In this document: piece by piece, positions 1-6,872 of the stretch
Numbering within the stretch: position 1 is the first letter of the stretch
Layout: every line of letters starts with the position of its first letter
Assembly: GCF_006345805.1 (NCBI RefSeq)
Contig: NW_021827278.1
Span: forward strand, 1-10,608
Origin: Octopus sinensis
Taxonomy: Eukaryota
Direction: 5' to 3'
Length of the DNA stretch: 10,608 bases
Made by a program: the position numbers

Positions 1-2088
1 GATGGACCGGCGTCCCGTCCAGGCGGGGAACCTATATGCCAAGGAAACCGGGAAACCGGCCCTTAAGGGCCAGGCATGGTTCGAGAAGGAACAAACAACA
101 ATTCGCCAGTTCTAATGTGGTCGGATATCGGTGGAAATTGCTCCTGTTCCTGGACGACCACATTCCGCCATTGATGACGACGCCAACTATAATGTTGAAG
201 TCGCCATTTTGGAGGATCGTTACATAACTATTCGGTATTTAGCCCAAGAAGTGAAGATAAATATAGGGTCCATGGAAAAAATCCTTGACGACCATTTGGA
301 CATGCGGAAGTTATCTGCATGATGGATTCCCCTGGCCCTCGCACCTTTTCAGAAGCAGGAACGAGTCAGTTGCTCCCAGGCCCTTATGGCAATGTGCCAA
401 GAAAACAAGGAGGAGGTTTTCGGCAGACTTATCACACAGGATGAAACATGGGTCCATCACTATGATCTTGATATGAAAGTCCAGTCGAAGGAACGGAAGC
501 ATGAGAACTCATCACCTCGAAAGAAGGACCCTGTCCATCCCTCAGTAGCCAAGGTGAACTCATGACTTCCAAAGAAGGCCCCTGTCCATCCCTCAGTAGC
601 CAAGATGATACTCTCTTTTACTTGTTTCAGTAATTTGACTGCGGCCATGCTGGAGCACCGCCTTTTTTATTTAGTCGAGCAACTCGACCCCAGGGCTCAT
701 CCTTTGTAAGCCTAGTACTTATTCTATCGGTCTCTTTTGCCGAACCGCTAAGTGACGGGGACGTAAACACACCAGCATCGGTTGTCAAGCGATGTTGGGG
801 AGACAAACACAGACACACAAACACACACACGCATATATATATATACATATATACGACGGGCTTCTTTCAGTTTGTCTACCAAATCCACTCACAACGCTTT
901 GGTCGGCCCGAGGCTATAGTAGAAGACACTTGCCCAAGGTGCCACGCAGTGGGACTGAACCCGGAACCCTATGGTTGGTAAGCAAGCTACTTACTGCACA
1001 GCTACTCCTGCTCACAATCTTTTGGGACCAGTGCGGAGTAGTGAAAGTGGATTTTCTGGTAAAGGGCACCACAGTTAACGGGGCATATTATGTCTCTCTG
1101 CTGCAGAAATTGCAGGATACCATCAAAGCAGAGAGGCGTGACGTGCTGACCAAAGGAGTCCGCTCCTCCAAGACAACGCCCCAGTTCACAATACGCTTGT
1201 TGCCCAGATGAAAGCACACTCCTGCAGCTATGAAGTCCTTTCTCATCCCCTTTATTCTCCCGATATTGCATCATCTAACTTCCTCTTCTTTCCAACCATG
1301 GAGTCTTTTTCTTTTTTTGAAGAGGGCGCAATTTCCGGATGCTTATTTCCGAACTTATTTCCGAGGTAACGTCTTGGCTCCAGACGCGATCTACCAACTT
1401 CTACAGACGAGGTCTTCACGGCTGCATAAAGCGAGGGGAGAAGTGTGTCACCATTGGTGGTGGTCATGTAGAGAAGGACTAATAATTATGCCAAGTTTCG
1501 TTTATACCAGTTCTAATATCTCTAGGCTGTATAGATATTAGAGCATTTATAGATAGATAAATGCTCTAATATCTATACAGTCTTGGGTTTTTTTCTCTTA
1601 TTACGCAAAATTTTTTTATATACACACGCTAACATAGAACCAACGTTGAACCCTTTATTCGCAATATTACCCAATCTGGAACTTAACTATAGCACTTATT
1701 CAGCATTACCTGACACCTTTGGGTCTCAATGACACCATTATCTCTTATGTATATATATATATATAAAGTTTCGTTTATCCCAGTTCTTGGGAAGTGGGTC
1801 TGGCGAAATCTTTAATGAAAACCCCTAGTTTGTATGAGTGTAGCAAAAGTCGCCATGTTTATTTATTTACACATATATATTAGTTAATCCAAACAAGAAG
1901 AGCACACAAAACACACAACAACGCGAAGACGTGGAACAAATTAGTATGGTATTGGACGCTCAGGAAGAAGGGAAAGAAGGAGGGTTTAACGTTTCGAGCG
2001 GAGCTCTTCGTCGGAAACATGGAGAAGGAAAAAATCAGAGAAGGGAAGACATAGGAAAAAAAATCGCCAACGGTACACACGAGGTCAC

Positions 2089-2140
<52 letters not shown>

Positions 2141-3191
2141 TATATATAAACAAGACTTCGTAGTTGCTCTTTCTCCGTAAGTATCACGCCTCCGGATTTA
2201 TTAACAAATATTATATGTAGCACTAGACAGTTAAGTATCTATGCATAAAATTTGACTGAAATTGATGGGTGAGCGTTTGGCTCAATCTGATGCGCATGGA
2301 GCCATGTTTGCGTTCATATGTGAGTTCGATTCTAGCCTGGTGAGCTCACCATTTTTCAGTGAATTATTATTAAAATATAATATTGTATCGTTAGTATTGA
2401 ATAAAAGACTTTCGTAGTCACTCTTTCTACGTAACTTATCGAGCCTTCCTAGTTTATATATATATATTACTTTTTTGTGGATTAACAAGTCTACCAATGG
2501 TTTCATGTAGACAGAAATCTCTCAACAATTATCAATCCTGCTAAATGGGAATGCTGGTACTCGTCTCGTACTTATCTCCATCATAGATGAGAATATATAT
2601 ATATGCATATGCATAAATGCATCAGGAATTGACTAGGTGACTTAAAATAAGTGGTACGGTCGAATGAGCTCTTCAACACGGTGCCACCCAATGGACGGAT
2701 AGAAGTTAAAGACTAAAAGAAACAGGAAATGGAGAAAACTGAATTTCTATATTAACGTAAAATAATACGCAACTTTGTTAAATAGAGCAGAACATATTTT
2801 CGGAACCAAATCTTCCACGATCACCACTCCGTGTATTTCCAAATTTCGATTCTGTCGTATATGTTTCTATGTATGCTGAAATACCGTGCAGTCTCGTGTA
2901 GCTTCGTGTATTCTCATCTATGATGGAGACAAGTACGAGACGAGTACTAGCATTCCCATTTAGCAGGATTGATAATTGTTGAGGGATTTCTGTCTACATG
3001 AAACCATTGGTAGACTTGTTAATCCACAAATAAGTAATATATATATATATAATGTATGTATGTATGCATGTATGTATCATGGGCAAGTGTCTACTACTAT
3101 ATAGCCTCAGGCCGACCAAAGCCTTGTGATTGGATTTAGCAGACTGAAACTGAAAGAAGCCCGTTGTATATATGTATATACATATATATAC

Positions 3192-3225
<34 letters not shown>

Positions 3226-3453
3226 CTGTGTTTGTCCCCCCAACATCGCTTGACAACTGATGCTGGTGTGTTTACAACCTCGTAACTTAGCGGTTCGGCA
3301 AAGAGACGGAGAGAATAAGTACTAGACAAACAGATAGATAGACAGACAGATAGACAGGTATAGACAGACAGACAGATATAGATAGATAGGCAGATAGATA
3401 TAACTAGATAGACAGATATAGATAGATAGACTGATAGACAGATATAGACAGAC

Positions 3454-3512
<59 letters not shown>

Positions 3513-4226
3513 CAGATATAGATAGATAGATAGATAGACAGATATAGATAGATAGACAGACAGACAGATATACATAGATAGATACCAAAAGATTGAGAGA
3601 AGGAGTTTGATTAAAATGATATAGAGAGAAAAAGAGAGCAAGGGAGAGAAAATATATATATATATAATTTCCATGTAGGTATAAACATATCGCGTGTCTG
3701 TATAAATGTGAGTATATACATATTATATATATATTATATATATATATATATAATAATATATATATATATATATATCCATGTACGCAATTGTTTGCGTGCG
3801 TCTGTGAGTGCTAAAGCGATATTTGAAGATGAAAGCGGCCGAAAGTGGGATGAGCGACTATTTCTAATTTATAGCAAAGGAACGGTGCCGAGATGAAGCC
3901 ATCTTTTAGCTCTTTCGCTTTGGAATGTCTTGAAAATGGTAAAAGCATTCTTCACACACATGGTTAGTTCCACGATTCCAGTCTTCGACACATCAAACGT
4001 TTTCAACTCAAAGATATGATCAACAGTTTCCAATATACGTCCGCATGCATATATGTGTGTATATATGTATGTATATAGGTGAATGCAACGTATATGATAT
4101 ATATAATTATATATATATATATATATATATATGATATATGTACATTTTATATAATATATATAGTACATATCACGTATAATATGCATAATATATATATATA
4201 TATATTGATATATATTCACACACATT

Positions 4227-4260
<34 letters not shown>

Positions 4261-4386
4261 CTAATCTGTATATAGGCATGGGTTAAACTGTAGATTGATA
4301 GATGGCTATATAATAGAGGTGTAGATTAATGTGAGCATGGGGTAGAAACGGAAATGAATGTATATATGCGTTTATATAACTCTCTC

Positions 4387-4453
<67 letters not shown>

Positions 4454-4520
4454 CTGTATACAGGGATCACTTGGTGTTGTACAGAATTACGTACCTATTA
4501 CGTATATATATGTGTATATA

Positions 4521-4553
<33 letters not shown>

Positions 4554-5532
4554 CATATATATACATATATACACACATGCATACCCGCACATTACAAATA
4601 TAGGTGTTAAGTTTGTACGTATATATGTATATTTATGTGTGTGTGTGTGTATGCACATACATACATAAAAATGTCCATACATATGTATAGATATATATAT
4701 ACATTGTATTATAAATCAAAGTATATATTTAGAGATAGATATGTAGATAGATAGAGAGATAGATATGGCTGTGTGGTAAAGAAACTGGCTATGCAACTAC
4801 GCGGTTTTAGGTTCATTCCCTGTGTAGCACCTTGAGCAAGTTTCTTCTAATACACTCACGACGCTGTCCAATACTTTGGAAGTGAAACTGGATGACGGAA
4901 ATTGAGTGAAGCCCGACGTTTGTGTATGTGTGTGTCTTTGTGCTCGTGATGGTCCCAGTATCATCTCTTCACAACCGGTGCTGTTTTGTTTACGTCCCTG
5001 TAATCTAATAGTTCGTCAAAAGCGAATAAAAGAACGCCAGACTTATAAAAATAAGTGACCGGCGTGAATTTCTTCGGGTAGATTTGTAAACCCTTCAGAC
5101 TTGGGCCCCAACATGGCCGTAATCTAATGACTGAAATAAAAACAAAAGGATATAGTTTCCACGGAAACAGTTACACGGTTTTCGGCGAGAAAGTGTAGAT
5201 AAAATATTACATATATATATATACATACCACGCTGTCATCAGCAACCAACAAGAAAATAAAATAAATGTCATTCGTGTTAGACAGGCTGCAGTTGACACA
5301 GGTTAAAAATACAAAAATACAAATGGGTGGAAGGAAAGAAGGACGAAGCAAGTAAAGATAAGTAGGATGTCAGCTCAGCTGAGATACAATACTCTTGCTG
5401 ATGACGGCAAGATACGTCTGTGTACTTATATAATACACTTTTCCATTAGAAACAAGGTACCGTGCTCACATCTCCAAAATATTTATCATGTTGTGTGTGT
5501 GTGTCTATGCATGCATATATATATTATATATA

Positions 5533-5580
<48 letters not shown>

Positions 5581-6830
5581 TTAGATCCAAATTAGATTCT
5601 TTTGCCACATGTATCACTGACGAAGAGAGGGCTCTTAGTAGCTAACTCTGAATCGGTCCGATATAGTAATAATGGAATTTTTAAGAAATTTCTGTCGACC
5701 TCTTTTCGAGTAGCGTGCGGATTGTGAAAAAATTAATGGTTAATGGACAATATGTCCAATTTTTCGGCATATTTGGCATTAGTAATTTTTTCGTTTGCCC
5801 TTATTTATGAACTGTATATATATAATTAGAGATAAAACCACTATTAGGCAAATCAAACAGTGAAAAACAAACCAATAAATAGAAATAATATTGATTAATA
5901 TAAATAAAAATTATATATATATATATATATATATTTATAAGTATAAATTAATAATTTAAATAATTTTTTAAATTTTAACTTTAAATTTGAATAATTTAAA
6001 TTTTGAATTTTATATTTTATATATTTTGTATATTATATTAATTAATTTTATTTCTATGTTCTGGTTTATGTTTTTCACTGTTTGATTTGCCTAATATTGG
6101 TTTTATCTCTAATTATATATATATATATTTATACTGTAAAATTAGATTTAATCCTAAATCTAATTTTTCCCTGTAAATTTGGATTTACTCCCTAATATTA
6201 TATATATATATATATATGTATATTTATATATATATACAGTGGATGCACAATGGCCCAGTGGTTAGGGAAACGGTCTCGAGGTTATAGGATCGCGGTTTCT
6301 TGATTAACATAATGTGATGGTTTATTTTTAGACTGACATGGTAGGGCAGGTGTGAGGGACCTGATCTGGTTGGTTTGGGCTGGATATCGCTCGTTTAAAG
6401 GCTAAAGGCTTGACTATGTAAAATGTTAGAGAAAAAACCCAACCATTCTTGCAATACTTACCAATATACACATCAAAACCAAAATTTTTTTCAGGGGCCC
6501 TTAAATTTCTATTCTGGATCCCAAATTTACCATTTCGTTGCGTGGCCCCCTAAAAATCTTATATGGCCCCTGAGAGTCCCTATGGGCTTTCAGGGGCCAT
6601 ATACTCCAAAGCATAGGGCTGTAATGCATTTATATGCAGTTACATCTATGTCCGGTCATAGACTGACCAATGGTTTCGCATCCATTGATGGCTTAGTCCC
6701 ATGGACAATTCGTCTGACTCTACAGCCGTAGAGCTATAAGGTCTTTGACTGACGGAGCCGTCCATGGGGCCAGGTCCTTTGTGGATGCTAAACCGTTGGT
6801 CACTCTATGACAGGACATAGACTTAACCGC

Positions 6831-6872
<42 letters not shown>

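What the first reader, a model, noticed from the sequence alone, without database searches (positions are those of the whole stretch)
1515..6835. An ecosystem of small structured cassettes, each bounded by (TA)n
Seen: at least eight unrelated non-coding modules abut TA runs, most on both sides (1515-1765, 1880-2093, 2152-2456, 2467-3037, 5577-5815, 5824-6114, 6131-6200, 6631-6835). They are chained in two clusters, and each has strong internal structure (hammerhead motif, tRNA-like fold or long inverted repeat). Inference: (TA)n tracts serve as shared landing pads, or as products, of one or more microsatellite-targeting mobilisation systems, for example Penelope-like RT/GIY-YIG machinery moving non-autonomous RNAs. 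The TA tracts would then be element junctions rather than slippage noise.
Basis: inference. Interest (0 to 1): 0.7.

Follow-up and report, generated by a model that had tools for sequence, protein, structure and literature searches.

The report
Small transposon relics chained between TA repeats
In a repeat-saturated stretch of invertebrate-like DNA, several small unrelated mobile-element relics sit end to end between TA repeats, an arrangement already described in plants and probably ordinary for such a genome.

Summary
The coordinates and the TA tracts at the module edges are real. The claim that each of eight modules is a structured cassette is only half true.

- **Inverted-repeat elements.** Three modules (2467-3037, 5824-6114, 6631-6835) are MITE-like. 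All six of their repeat tips lie flush against TA tracts.
- **Bracketed insertion.** Module 1515-1765 is flanked by a 21/22 direct repeat and carries its own (TA)8.
- **Partial tandem.** Module 2152-2456 is a 1.2-copy tandem.
- **No hallmark.** Modules 1880-2093 and 5577-5815 fold no better than shuffles.
- **RNA and protein searches.** No hammerhead, tRNA, reverse transcriptase or GIY-YIG was found.

TA tracts cover 11.6% of the window and hold 30-41% of all TA dinucleotides. A TA-inserting transposon would therefore often land in one (about 0.03 for three of three). TA tracts also change length in place.

The best reading is a non-nested chain of small transposons at TA tracts, as in plant SaTar/mt-MITE arrays. 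The Penelope/hammerhead mechanism is not supported, but it is not excluded for some modules. Genome-wide copies could not be examined.

The parts
1..1872 (+). Dead mariner-type transposon, cut at its 5' end by the window edge. It is interrupted by a SINE (613-1002) and by M1. Its presumed 3' end meets the short TA run 1873-1880.
   Evidence: The translated pieces hit mariner/SETMAR-like proteins (14 hits, 56-69% identity). Piece 1011-1211 hits Pfam PF01359 at E 1.2e-10. Frames are broken. The position of the 3' end is inferred.
1493..1514 (.). Left copy of the direct repeat that brackets M1
   Evidence: 21 of 22 bases identical to 1766-1787
1515..1765 (.). M1: an insertion bracketed by a 22-nt duplication. 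It has a 60-nt near-perfect hairpin at 1524-1583 and (TA)8 at 1750-1765. In an alternative reading the duplication is 26 nt, and 1515-1583 is a later nested hairpin insertion.
   Evidence: hairpin z -8.4 as DNA; z -10.1. The orientation is unresolved: (TA)8 at the right end, T7 at 1588-1594.
1766..1787 (.). Right copy of the direct repeat that brackets M1
1881..2093 (.). M2: an interval between the mariner end and (TA)27. It has no hallmark of a mobile element.
   Evidence: No terminal inverted repeat, z +1.2/+0.4, no Rfam family, no Pfam domain
2094..2148 (.). TA tract between M2 and M3
2149..2454 (.). M3: about 1.2 tandem copies of a ~255-bp unit. The end repeats are roughly 2146-2195 and 2401-2452. 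The core at 2266-2352 has a 7-bp closing stem, GTTCGATTC and T5.
   Evidence: repeat alignment; fold; no tRNA; z -0.7; core -2.3
2455..2467 (.). TA tract between M3 and M4
2467..3037 (.). M4: MITE-like element. Its arms are 2467-2595 and 2909-3037, with a 313-nt non-palindromic centre and an internal (AT)6 at 2593-2604.
   Evidence: 125 of 129 arm positions complementary. z -30. The tips abut TA runs of 13 and 15 bp.
3037..3051 (.). TA tract to the right of M4
5515..5576 (.). TA tract to the left of M5
5577..5814 (.). M5: an interval between TA tracts with no hallmark of a mobile element. It has only a short AAATTAGAT duplication at its left end.
   Evidence: no inverted repeat; z -0.1/-1.1; no RNA family
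5815..5824 (.). TA tract between M5 and M6
5824..6114 (.). M6: an almost fully palindromic MITE-like element with 13% G+C. Its arms are 5824-5960 and 5980-6114. The left arm alone holds (TA)11 at 5912-5934.
   Evidence: (79.9% over 323). z -17. The tips abut TA runs of 10 and 15 bp.
6114..6128 (.). TA tract between M6 and M7
6129..6198 (.). M7: a 70-nt piece with two small hairpins and weak terminal inverted repeats. Its right end weakly resembles the M6 tip.
   Evidence: (z -3.6); score 13, single-pair p about 0.002 with 112 pairs tested; p about 0.01.
6199..6236 (.). TA tract between M7 and the next unit
6237..6630 (+). It starts flush on the TA tract with CAGTGG and an A-box-like TGGCCCAGTGG. 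It has no TA tract at its right end.
   Evidence: sequence; z -1.5/-1.0; no Rfam family. The A-box consensus is recalled.
6631..6835 (.). M8: MITE-like element with arms 6631-6706 and 6760-6835
   Evidence: 61 of 76 arm positions complementary. z -12. The left tip abuts only TATAT and the right tip abuts (AT)13.
6831..6856 (.). TA tract to the right of M8

Best explanation
The region is a mosaic of unrelated small non-coding transposable-element relics interleaved with (TA)n, in a genome saturated with microsatellites.

**The elements.** M4, M6 and M8 are most likely miniature inverted-repeat elements moved by cut-and-paste transposases that integrate at TA or in TA-rich DNA. M1 is a different kind of insertion. 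It made a 22-26 nt target duplication, as retro-type integration does, and brought or grew its own (TA)8.

**How the chain forms.** A TA tract offers many such target sites in a row. An insertion splits the tract into two tracts that both remain targets. Further unrelated elements then stack side by side without nesting.

**The tracts themselves.** TA tracts also lengthen and shorten in place by slippage, so they are at once targets, cargo and noise.

**Unresolved modules.** M2 and M5 are probably just DNA that lies between tracts. M3 (a partial tandem) and M7 (a tiny inverted repeat) are unresolved.

**Shown:** the anatomy, the flush tips, the duplication around M1, and the in-place length change.
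**Inferred:** the class of each element, the TA preference, and the order of events.
For: - **Inverted-repeat arms.** M4 has 125/129 complementary positions and M8 has 61/76. M6 is 85% identical to its own reverse complement.
- **Flush tips.** All 6 tips are flush on alternating TA runs of 5-26 bp.
- **Chance of that.** Only 8.3% of positions are preceded by such a run, so three insertions placed uniformly would all land in one with probability about 6e-4 (my arithmetic).
- **Compatible with a TA duplication.** The flanks of all three can be read as TA|element|TA.
- **No nesting.** The intervals between neighbouring modules M3|M4, M5|M6 and M6|M7 are pure TA.
- **TA-integrating elements live here.** A mariner relic, from a superfamily that integrates at TA (established knowledge), lies in the same window.
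- **M1.** It has a 21/22 flanking duplication with (TA)8 inside it.
- **Slippage.** The SINE-internal TA tract is 0, 8, 20, about 34 and 62 bp in 5 copies. M6 has a one-armed (TA)11.
- **Precedent.**
  - Unrelated MITEs flanked by (TA)n form non-nested arrays in guayule and rice (PMC5907723; abstract and sections 13 and 19 read).
  - The same is reported in pineapple (PMC8449440; passages).
  - TA-microsatellite targeting by MuTAnT is reported in Medicago (PMC4486113; passages).
Against: - **Mass action explains much of it.** 40.6% of the window's 1398 TA dinucleotides lie in TA runs >=6 bp, and 30.4% in runs >=10 bp. For a plain TA-inserting element the chance of three of three landing in a tract is about 0.03. 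That rests on n = 3 in a window picked for this very feature.
- **Duplication length unreadable.** The target duplication of M4, M6 and M8 cannot be read inside TA repeats, so the superfamily is unknown.
- **No shared termini.** None of the ten module ends compared (M3 was not among them) resembles the resident mariner's 3' end; scores were 6-10 against a null 95th percentile of 10.75.
- **Copy number unknown.** No second copy of any module exists in the window, and copy number in the genome is untested.
- **Inverted repeats are not proof of a DNA transposon.** Penelope-like insertions also form inverted-repeat units (PMC8557442; passages).
- **No evidence for three modules.** 3 of 8 modules (M2, M3, M5) fold no better than shuffled sequence, and M2 and M5 show no mark of mobility at all.
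Confidence: 0.5

Rival explanations
1. One or more RNA-mediated systems that prefer (TA)n, such as Penelope-like elements of the Naiad type, inserted non-autonomous RNAs here. The TA tracts are their landing pads.
For: - Naiad Penelope-like elements prefer (TA)n, lack canonical hammerheads, occur in many invertebrate phyla, and form partial tandems (pseudo-LTRs) and inverted 5'-truncated units (PMC8557442; passages).
- M3 is a 1.2-copy partial tandem lying between two TA tracts.
- M1 has a 22-26 nt flanking duplication, too long for the fixed 2-11 bp typical of cut-and-paste elements (established knowledge).
- M4's layout, a 129-nt arm next to a 313 + 129 nt unit, would fit an inverted truncated copy beside a fuller copy.
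Against: - No hammerhead was found at E<=10 in three Rfam searches or by pattern inside the region.
- No reverse transcriptase or GIY-YIG was found in the 25 ORFs (of the 91 of >=50 aa that one search lists) that were scanned against Pfam.
- The module ends share no common 3' motif, so one system cannot explain them all.
- M1's own target was not a TA tract.
- M6 and M8 are near-complete palindromes. As inverted dimers they would need equal truncation points.
Confidence: 0.15
2. There is no targeting at all. TA tracts are so dense that any sequence, mobile or not, is cut into TA-bounded pieces. The flush tips are mass action plus selection of a striking window.
For: - TA runs cover 11.6% of the window in 97 runs.
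- Short tandem repeats cover 25.1%.
- There are 23 TA-bounded gaps of >=40 bp. These include unstructured controls such as 3776-4048 and 5224-5514.
- M2 and M5 have no hallmark of mobility.
- The conditional null gives only about 0.03.
- The abundant SINE does insert away from TA: copy 613-1002 lies inside the mariner reading frame.
Against: - All six tips are flush to the base. This is expected about 6e-4 of the time under uniform placement, and still only about 0.03 if TA dinucleotides are the only requirement.
- Neighbouring modules never interrupt each other.
- The same architecture reflects real preference in plants, where copies outside tracts could be counted.
Confidence: 0.2
3. The tracts are mostly products. 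Elements inserted at a short TA site or carried a TA end, and the flanking TA then expanded on each side by polymerase stuttering or slippage.
For: - M1's (TA)8 lies inside its flanking duplication.
- M8 has 5 bp of TA on one side and 26 bp on the other.
- TA tracts demonstrably change length in place.
- Maize TAFT elements are reported to have empty sites of 6-8 bp of TA that expanded to as much as (TA)50 after insertion. I saw this only as cited in PMC5907723, section 19.
- In penaeid shrimp, transposons are described as carriers of simple repeats (PMC7878876; passages).
Against: - A single locus cannot distinguish this from insertion into an existing tract.
- Many long TA arrays in the window touch no recognisable element end, for example 4091-4260 and 8259-8756.
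Confidence: 0.15

Closest known systems
Plant microsatellite-targeted MITE arrays: SaTar (guayule, rice), mt-MITEs (pineapple), MuTAnT (Medicago). Micron (rice) and TAFT (maize) were seen only as citations.
   Same: - They are small non-coding inverted-repeat elements, with repeat arms of 40-250 bp in SaTars.
- They are flanked by (TA)n.
- Unrelated elements are joined end to end without nesting, with almost pure TA between them.
   Different: - Those families are Mutator-like, shown by 9-10 bp duplications in copies outside tracts and, for MuTAnT, by an autonomous partner. None of that could be tested here.
- The hosts are plants, whereas this window looks animal (mariner relic and tRNA-headed SINEs).
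- The chain here is mixed, with one long-duplication insertion and several pieces that have no hallmark.
Tc1/mariner-derived (Stowaway-like) MITEs with a TA target duplication
   Same: - The elements have inverted repeats, are small and non-coding.
- The flanks of all 3 can be read as TA|element|TA.
- A mariner relic lies in the same window.
   Different: - No module end resembles the resident mariner's end.
- The TA duplication cannot be told apart from the surrounding repeat.
- The arms of 76-135 nt are long for this kind (recalled).
Naiad-type Penelope-like elements and animal non-LTR retrozymes
   Same: - Naiads prefer (TA)n and have no hammerhead.
- They form partial tandems and inverted units.
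- M3 is a partial tandem and M1 has a long duplication.
   Different: - No reverse transcriptase, GIY-YIG or hammerhead was found here.
- Retrozymes are defined by a type I hammerhead and tandem arrays (preprint 10.64898/2026.07.22.740005; passages). Neither is present.
Transposon-microsatellite association in penaeid shrimp genomes
   Same: - Composition matches. This window is 25.1% short tandem repeats and 12.2% TA arrays. Litopenaeus vannamei is reported at 23.93% simple repeats and 10.21% (AT)n (PMC7878876; passages).
- Transposons are reported adjacent to simple repeats there.
   Different: - That work is genome-scale statistics and does not describe flush inverted-repeat tips or non-nested chains.
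- I have not shown that this window is from a shrimp.

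Membership tests
MITE (non-autonomous class II element) | Terminal inverted repeats | tested here: met
   M4 has 125/129 complementary positions, M8 has 61/76, and M6 has arms of about 135 nt. This is not met by M1, M2, M3 or M5.
MITE (non-autonomous class II element) | Small size and no coding capacity | tested here: met
   The elements are 205-571 bp. The two ORFs inside M4 that were scanned have no Pfam domain; M6 and M8 are short and their ORFs were not scanned.
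MITE (non-autonomous class II element) | Target-site duplication of a fixed length | tested here: inconclusive
   The flanks are TA repeats, so any length that is a multiple of TA fits. M8's left flank (only TATAT) favours a short duplication.
MITE (non-autonomous class II element) | Many copies with the same precise ends | not testable with these tools
   There is no second copy in the window. No eukaryotic genome collection was on hand. A 24-mer from the M4 arm had 0 matches in the prokaryote collection.
Tc1/mariner-derived MITE | Tips shared with an autonomous Tc1/mariner element | tested here: not met
   This was tested only against the one resident mariner's 3' end. Scores were 6-10 against a null 95th percentile of 10.75. 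Other mariners in the genome were not examined.
Microsatellite-targeted MITE arrays (SaTar / mt-MITE type) | Elements flanked by microsatellite on both sides and joined in non-nested arrays of unrelated elements | tested here: met
   M3|M4 and M5|M6|M7 are joined by pure TA with no module interrupting another. M8 has a tract on one side only.
Microsatellite-targeted MITE arrays (SaTar / mt-MITE type) | Mutator-like origin: 9-10 bp duplications in copies outside tracts, and a mudrA-like partner | not testable with these tools
   This needs genome-wide copies.
Penelope-like element / retrozyme | Hammerhead ribozyme in the repeat | tested here: not met
   Rfam gave no match at E<=10 on the whole window or on two sub-regions. 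The core pattern is absent from 1515-6835. Naiad-type elements lack it anyway.
Penelope-like element / retrozyme | Reverse transcriptase with GIY-YIG endonuclease, in the element or a partner | tested here: not met
   None was found in the 25 ORFs scanned from this window. A partner elsewhere in the genome is not testable.
Penelope-like element / retrozyme | Partial tandem (pseudo-LTR) or tandem array | tested here: inconclusive
   M3 has about 50-nt end repeats that are roughly 80% alike, which amounts to 1.2 copies of a 255-bp unit. There is no longer array.
SINE / LINE-dependent retroposon (M1) | Variable, long target duplication with a simple-repeat or A-rich 3' tail | tested here: met
   There is a 21/22 duplication (26 nt in the alternative reading). 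The tail is (TA)8 at one end, or A7 on the other strand, so the orientation is unresolved.
SINE / LINE-dependent retroposon (M1) | Internal polymerase III A and B boxes | tested here: not met
   The A/B-box scan found none in M1. The consensus used was recalled.
tRNA or tRNA-derived head (M3 core) | Cloverleaf recognised by tRNA finders | tested here: not met
   ARAGORN found 0. Rfam found no tRNA at E<=10 in 601 nt. The minimum-energy fold is a long hairpin.

The most novel reading that the evidence does not exclude
What look like MITEs here are not DNA transposons. In this reading, hammerhead-less, TA-directed retro-mobilisation (Naiad-type Penelope-like machinery or a microsatellite-specific LINE) inserts short non-autonomous RNAs in three forms: simple units (M1, long duplication), partial tandems (M3), and inverted dimers whose two outer ends are both 3' ends facing TA (M4, M6, M8). 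This would build modular arrays in an animal genome and seed its extreme TA content. The weak resemblance of M1's TA-side end to the M6 tip (9 of 10 bases at nearly the same offset) would then be a shared 3' recognition end.
Probability: 0.1. Interest if true: 0.7.

Novelty: new member of a known kind. Interest (0 to 1): 0.35.

Why it matters
**If the targeting is real.** This would be an animal counterpart of the plant SaTar/mt-MITE arrays. All 5 papers in the library that hold 'MITEs', 'TA microsatellite' and 'target site' concern plants, apart from one human review. The 20 papers with 'microsatellite-targeting' (15 listed), the 2 hits and the listing showed me no animal case of such arrays.

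**A testable handle on an open question.** The shrimp genome paper leaves open 'How did TEs carry SSRs?' (PMC7878876, discussion passage). This locus shows three separable relations in 5 kb:
- a tract as flank of inverted-repeat tips;
- a tract as cargo inside a target duplication;
- a tract as an internal, length-variable part of a SINE.

**If the targeting is not real.** The finding is an ordinary consequence of a genome that is one quarter microsatellite.

Tried and rejected
- **Hammerhead and tRNA readings.** Both were rejected after Rfam, ARAGORN and pattern searches. The only CTGANGA..CGAAA string is at 10405-10429, outside the region, and is at chance level (9 of 200 shuffles reach one match).
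- **Rfam microRNA matches.** Hits such as mir-1277 at 50.3 bits against a gathering score of 81 are generic AT-rich hairpins, and I did not take them as genes.
- **Looking for more of this genome.**
  - An M4-arm 24-mer had 0 matches in the prokaryote collection.
  - A SINE 20-mer hit 15 loci with 55-76% G+C that share only 21-22 bases with the window, so these are chance matches.
  - A SINE 22-mer occurs in no paper of the library.
- **Taxon.** It was not settled.
  - The named mariner relatives are crustacean (Oratosquilla, Scylla; 58-66% identity), but the top hits are unnamed.
  - My recollection that the SINE looks cephalopod is unverified.
- **A shared terminal motif.**
  - AATTAGA occurs 7 times, 6 of them at the ends of M5, M6 and M7.
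  - TTAGAGATAA with <=1 mismatch occurs 5 times, 4 of them beside TA runs. With <=2 mismatches the count of 27 equals the chance expectation of 28.
  - 100-nt comparisons are not significant for M1 against M6 (p 0.3-0.45). I kept this only as a lead.
- **TATACAGT (a Tc1-like tip, recalled).** There are 3 matches against 1.18 expected, which is not significant.
- **Scripts that ran out of time.** The first folding script printed nothing. The second stopped after 33 of 36 rows.
- **Not consulted.** No supplementary file of any paper was read. These may list element families relevant here. No Repbase or Dfam library was on hand.

Full report
**What the window is.** The 10,608 bases are 35% G+C and carry no host gene that I could find. 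Short tandem repeats of period up to 6 cover 25.1% of the window, and TA arrays alone cover 12.2%. Counted strictly, 97 pure alternating TA runs of at least 6 bp cover 1,226 bp, or 11.6%.

The left end is a dead mariner-type transposon.
- Its translated pieces match mariner/SETMAR-like proteins: 14 hits at 56-69% identity. The named hits are crustacean and the best hits are unnamed.
- One piece matches Pfam PF01359 at E 1.2e-10.

A tRNA-headed SINE family occurs five times, at 613-1002, 3080-3325, 4765-5025, 8763-9014 and 9665-10100. The taxon is not settled. The repeat content matches figures published for penaeid shrimp, which are 23.93% simple repeats and 10.21% (AT)n in L. vannamei (PMC7878876; passages read). 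That match is a resemblance, not an identification.

**Checking the observation.**
- Six of eight modules have at least 8 bp of TA on both sides.
- M1 has none on its left and M8 has only TATAT on its left.
- The modules are unrelated to one another and single-copy within the window.
- No ORF scanned inside them has a Pfam domain.

The structural claim holds for half of them.
- M1 (z -6.5), M4 (-30), M6 (-17) and M8 (-12) fold far better than dinucleotide shuffles.
- M7 does so modestly (-3.6).
- M2, M3 and M5 do not (+1.2 to -1.3). They behave like the seven control intervals I finished (-1.5 to +1.5).
- That script stopped with 3 of 36 rows undone.

The hammerhead and tRNA claims are not confirmed.
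- No hammerhead and no tRNA was found by Rfam at E<=10 on the whole window or on sub-regions of 601 and 256 bases.
- ARAGORN found none.
- The hammerhead core pattern does not occur in the region.
The piece folds as a hairpin, not a cloverleaf.

**Anatomy of the modules.**
- **M4 (2467-3037)** has 129-nt arms with 125 complementary positions around a 313-nt unique centre.
- **M6 (5824-6114)** is 85% identical to its own reverse complement.
- **M8 (6631-6835)** has 76-nt arms with 61 complementary positions.
- All six arm tips stop exactly at an alternating TA run, of 13, 15, 10, 15, 5 and 26 bp.
- **M1 (1515-1765)** is of another kind.
  - It interrupts the mariner's 3' region and is bracketed by a 22-nt direct repeat with 21 identical bases. 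Its (TA)8 lies inside that bracket.
  - There is an alternative reading. If the 69 bases 1515-1583 are removed, the repeat extends to 26 nt. Those bases hold a 60-nt near-perfect hairpin, z -8.4 as DNA.
  - In that reading the remaining insert has T7 at one end and (TA)8 at the other, so its orientation is open.
  - Either way, a duplication of this length points to retro-type rather than cut-and-paste integration. This rests on established knowledge of duplication lengths.
- **M3 (2149-2454)** is about 1.2 tandem copies of a 255-bp unit.
- **M7** has weak inverted ends, and its right end faintly resembles the M6 tip.
- **M2 and M5** show nothing that marks them as elements.

**Is the TA association more than chance?**
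- Under uniform placement, yes. Only 8.3% of positions are preceded by an alternating run of at least 5 bp. Three independent insertions would all land in one about 6e-4 of the time (my arithmetic).
- The fairer null is a transposon that needs only a TA dinucleotide.
  - 40.6% of the 1,398 TA dinucleotides lie in runs of at least 6 bp, and 30.4% in runs of at least 10 bp.
  - The conditional chance for three of three is about 0.03. This is for n = 3, in a window chosen because it looked this way.
- Mass action therefore explains much of the pattern, and active preference for tracts is suggested but not shown.
- Being TA-bounded in itself means little here. There are 23 gaps of at least 40 bp between 52 TA runs of at least 10 bp.

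**TA tracts are not only junctions.**
- The homologous internal tract of the SINE family measures 0, 8, 20, about 34 and 62 bp in its five copies.
- The left arm of M6 has (TA)11 where its right arm has ATATATA-AAATATA.
- M4 holds an internal (AT)6.
- Long TA arrays such as 4091-4260 and 8259-8756 touch no recognisable element end.
- Slippage in place is therefore directly visible.

**Most likely mechanism.** I take the locus as a chain of unrelated small transposon relics built at TA tracts.
- Cut-and-paste elements that integrate at TA or TA-rich DNA hit a tract and split it in two.
- Both halves remain targets, so later elements stack beside earlier ones rather than inside them.
- Retro-type insertions such as M1 add tracts of their own.
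- Slippage reshapes all of them.

This is the architecture described in plants.
- Pineapple mt-MITEs show the same arrangement (PMC8449440; passages).
- MuTAnT targets TA microsatellites (PMC4486113; passages).
- Micron and TAFT I saw only as citations in these papers.

Those plant families are Mutator-like. Whether the elements here are Mutator-like, Tc1/mariner-like or something else cannot be read, because TA repeats hide the duplication. None of the ten module ends I compared (M3's were not included) resembles the resident mariner's end.

- Penelope-like elements of the Naiad clade do prefer (TA)n, lack hammerheads, occur in many invertebrates, and make partial tandems and inverted units (PMC8557442; passages).
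- M3's partial tandem, M1's long duplication and even M4's asymmetric arms could fit this. The idea therefore stays alive at low probability.
- Nothing positive supports it here. There is no ribozyme, no reverse transcriptase or GIY-YIG, and no shared 3' end among modules.
- Animal retrozymes are defined by a type I hammerhead and tandem arrays (preprint 10.64898/2026.07.22.740005; passages). Neither is present.

**What could not be done.**
- The decisive test is copies of each module across the source genome. It was impossible because no collection holding this genome, and no transposon library, was on hand.
- Two scans of the prokaryote collection gave nothing useful.
- I read no supplementary files.

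**Verdict.** The finding is real as anatomy, overstated as 'eight structured cassettes', and wrong on the hammerhead and tRNA motifs. Its general idea is probably right for three or four modules. It is a member of a known kind of arrangement, possibly not yet described in animals. I rate its interest as moderate to low until genome-wide counts exist.

Noticed in passing
window 1-1872: A mariner-type transposon relic with broken frames. It has a 51-bp tandem duplication at 505-613 right beside a SINE inserted into its reading frame at 613-1002, and M1 inserted near its 3' end.
   Followed up: partly
window 613-1002, 3080-3325, 4765-5025, 8763-9014, 9665-10100: Five copies of one SINE family, with A/B-box-like strings at one end. 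The family has an internal (CA)n(TA)n whose TA part ranges from 0 to 62 bp between copies. This element carries a length-variable microsatellite.
   Followed up: partly
window 6237-6630: A unit that starts flush on a TA tract with CAGTGG and an A-box-like TGGCCCAGTGG, and contains a 44-nt hairpin at 6560-6603. Rfam finds no family, and the unit has no TA tract at its right end.
   Followed up: partly
window 9123-9524: A 153-bp unit repeated 2.6 times at about 80% identity. Its nature is unknown.
   Followed up: no
window 8259-8756: A 500-bp compound TA array broken at irregular steps by TGCAT or TGAAT. It ends flush on the next SINE copy.
   Followed up: no
window 3332-3584, 4383-4453, 7131-7707: Long (GATA)n/(TCTA)n arrays in both orientations. 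The last one has interspersed GGGTAAATA units.
   Followed up: no
window 10405-10429: The only string in the window that fits the hammerhead core pattern CTGANGA..CGAAA. It is at chance level (9 of 200 shuffles), and Rfam has no hammerhead match there.
   Followed up: yes
window 1738-1747 and 5826-5835 / 6103-6112: The TA-side end of M1 matches the tip of M6 in 9 of 10 bases at nearly the same distance from the TA tract. Longer comparisons are not significant. It is a possible shared end motif, or chance in AT-rich DNA.
   Followed up: partly
window 10298-10352: A 21-bp unit repeated 2.7 times.
   Followed up: no
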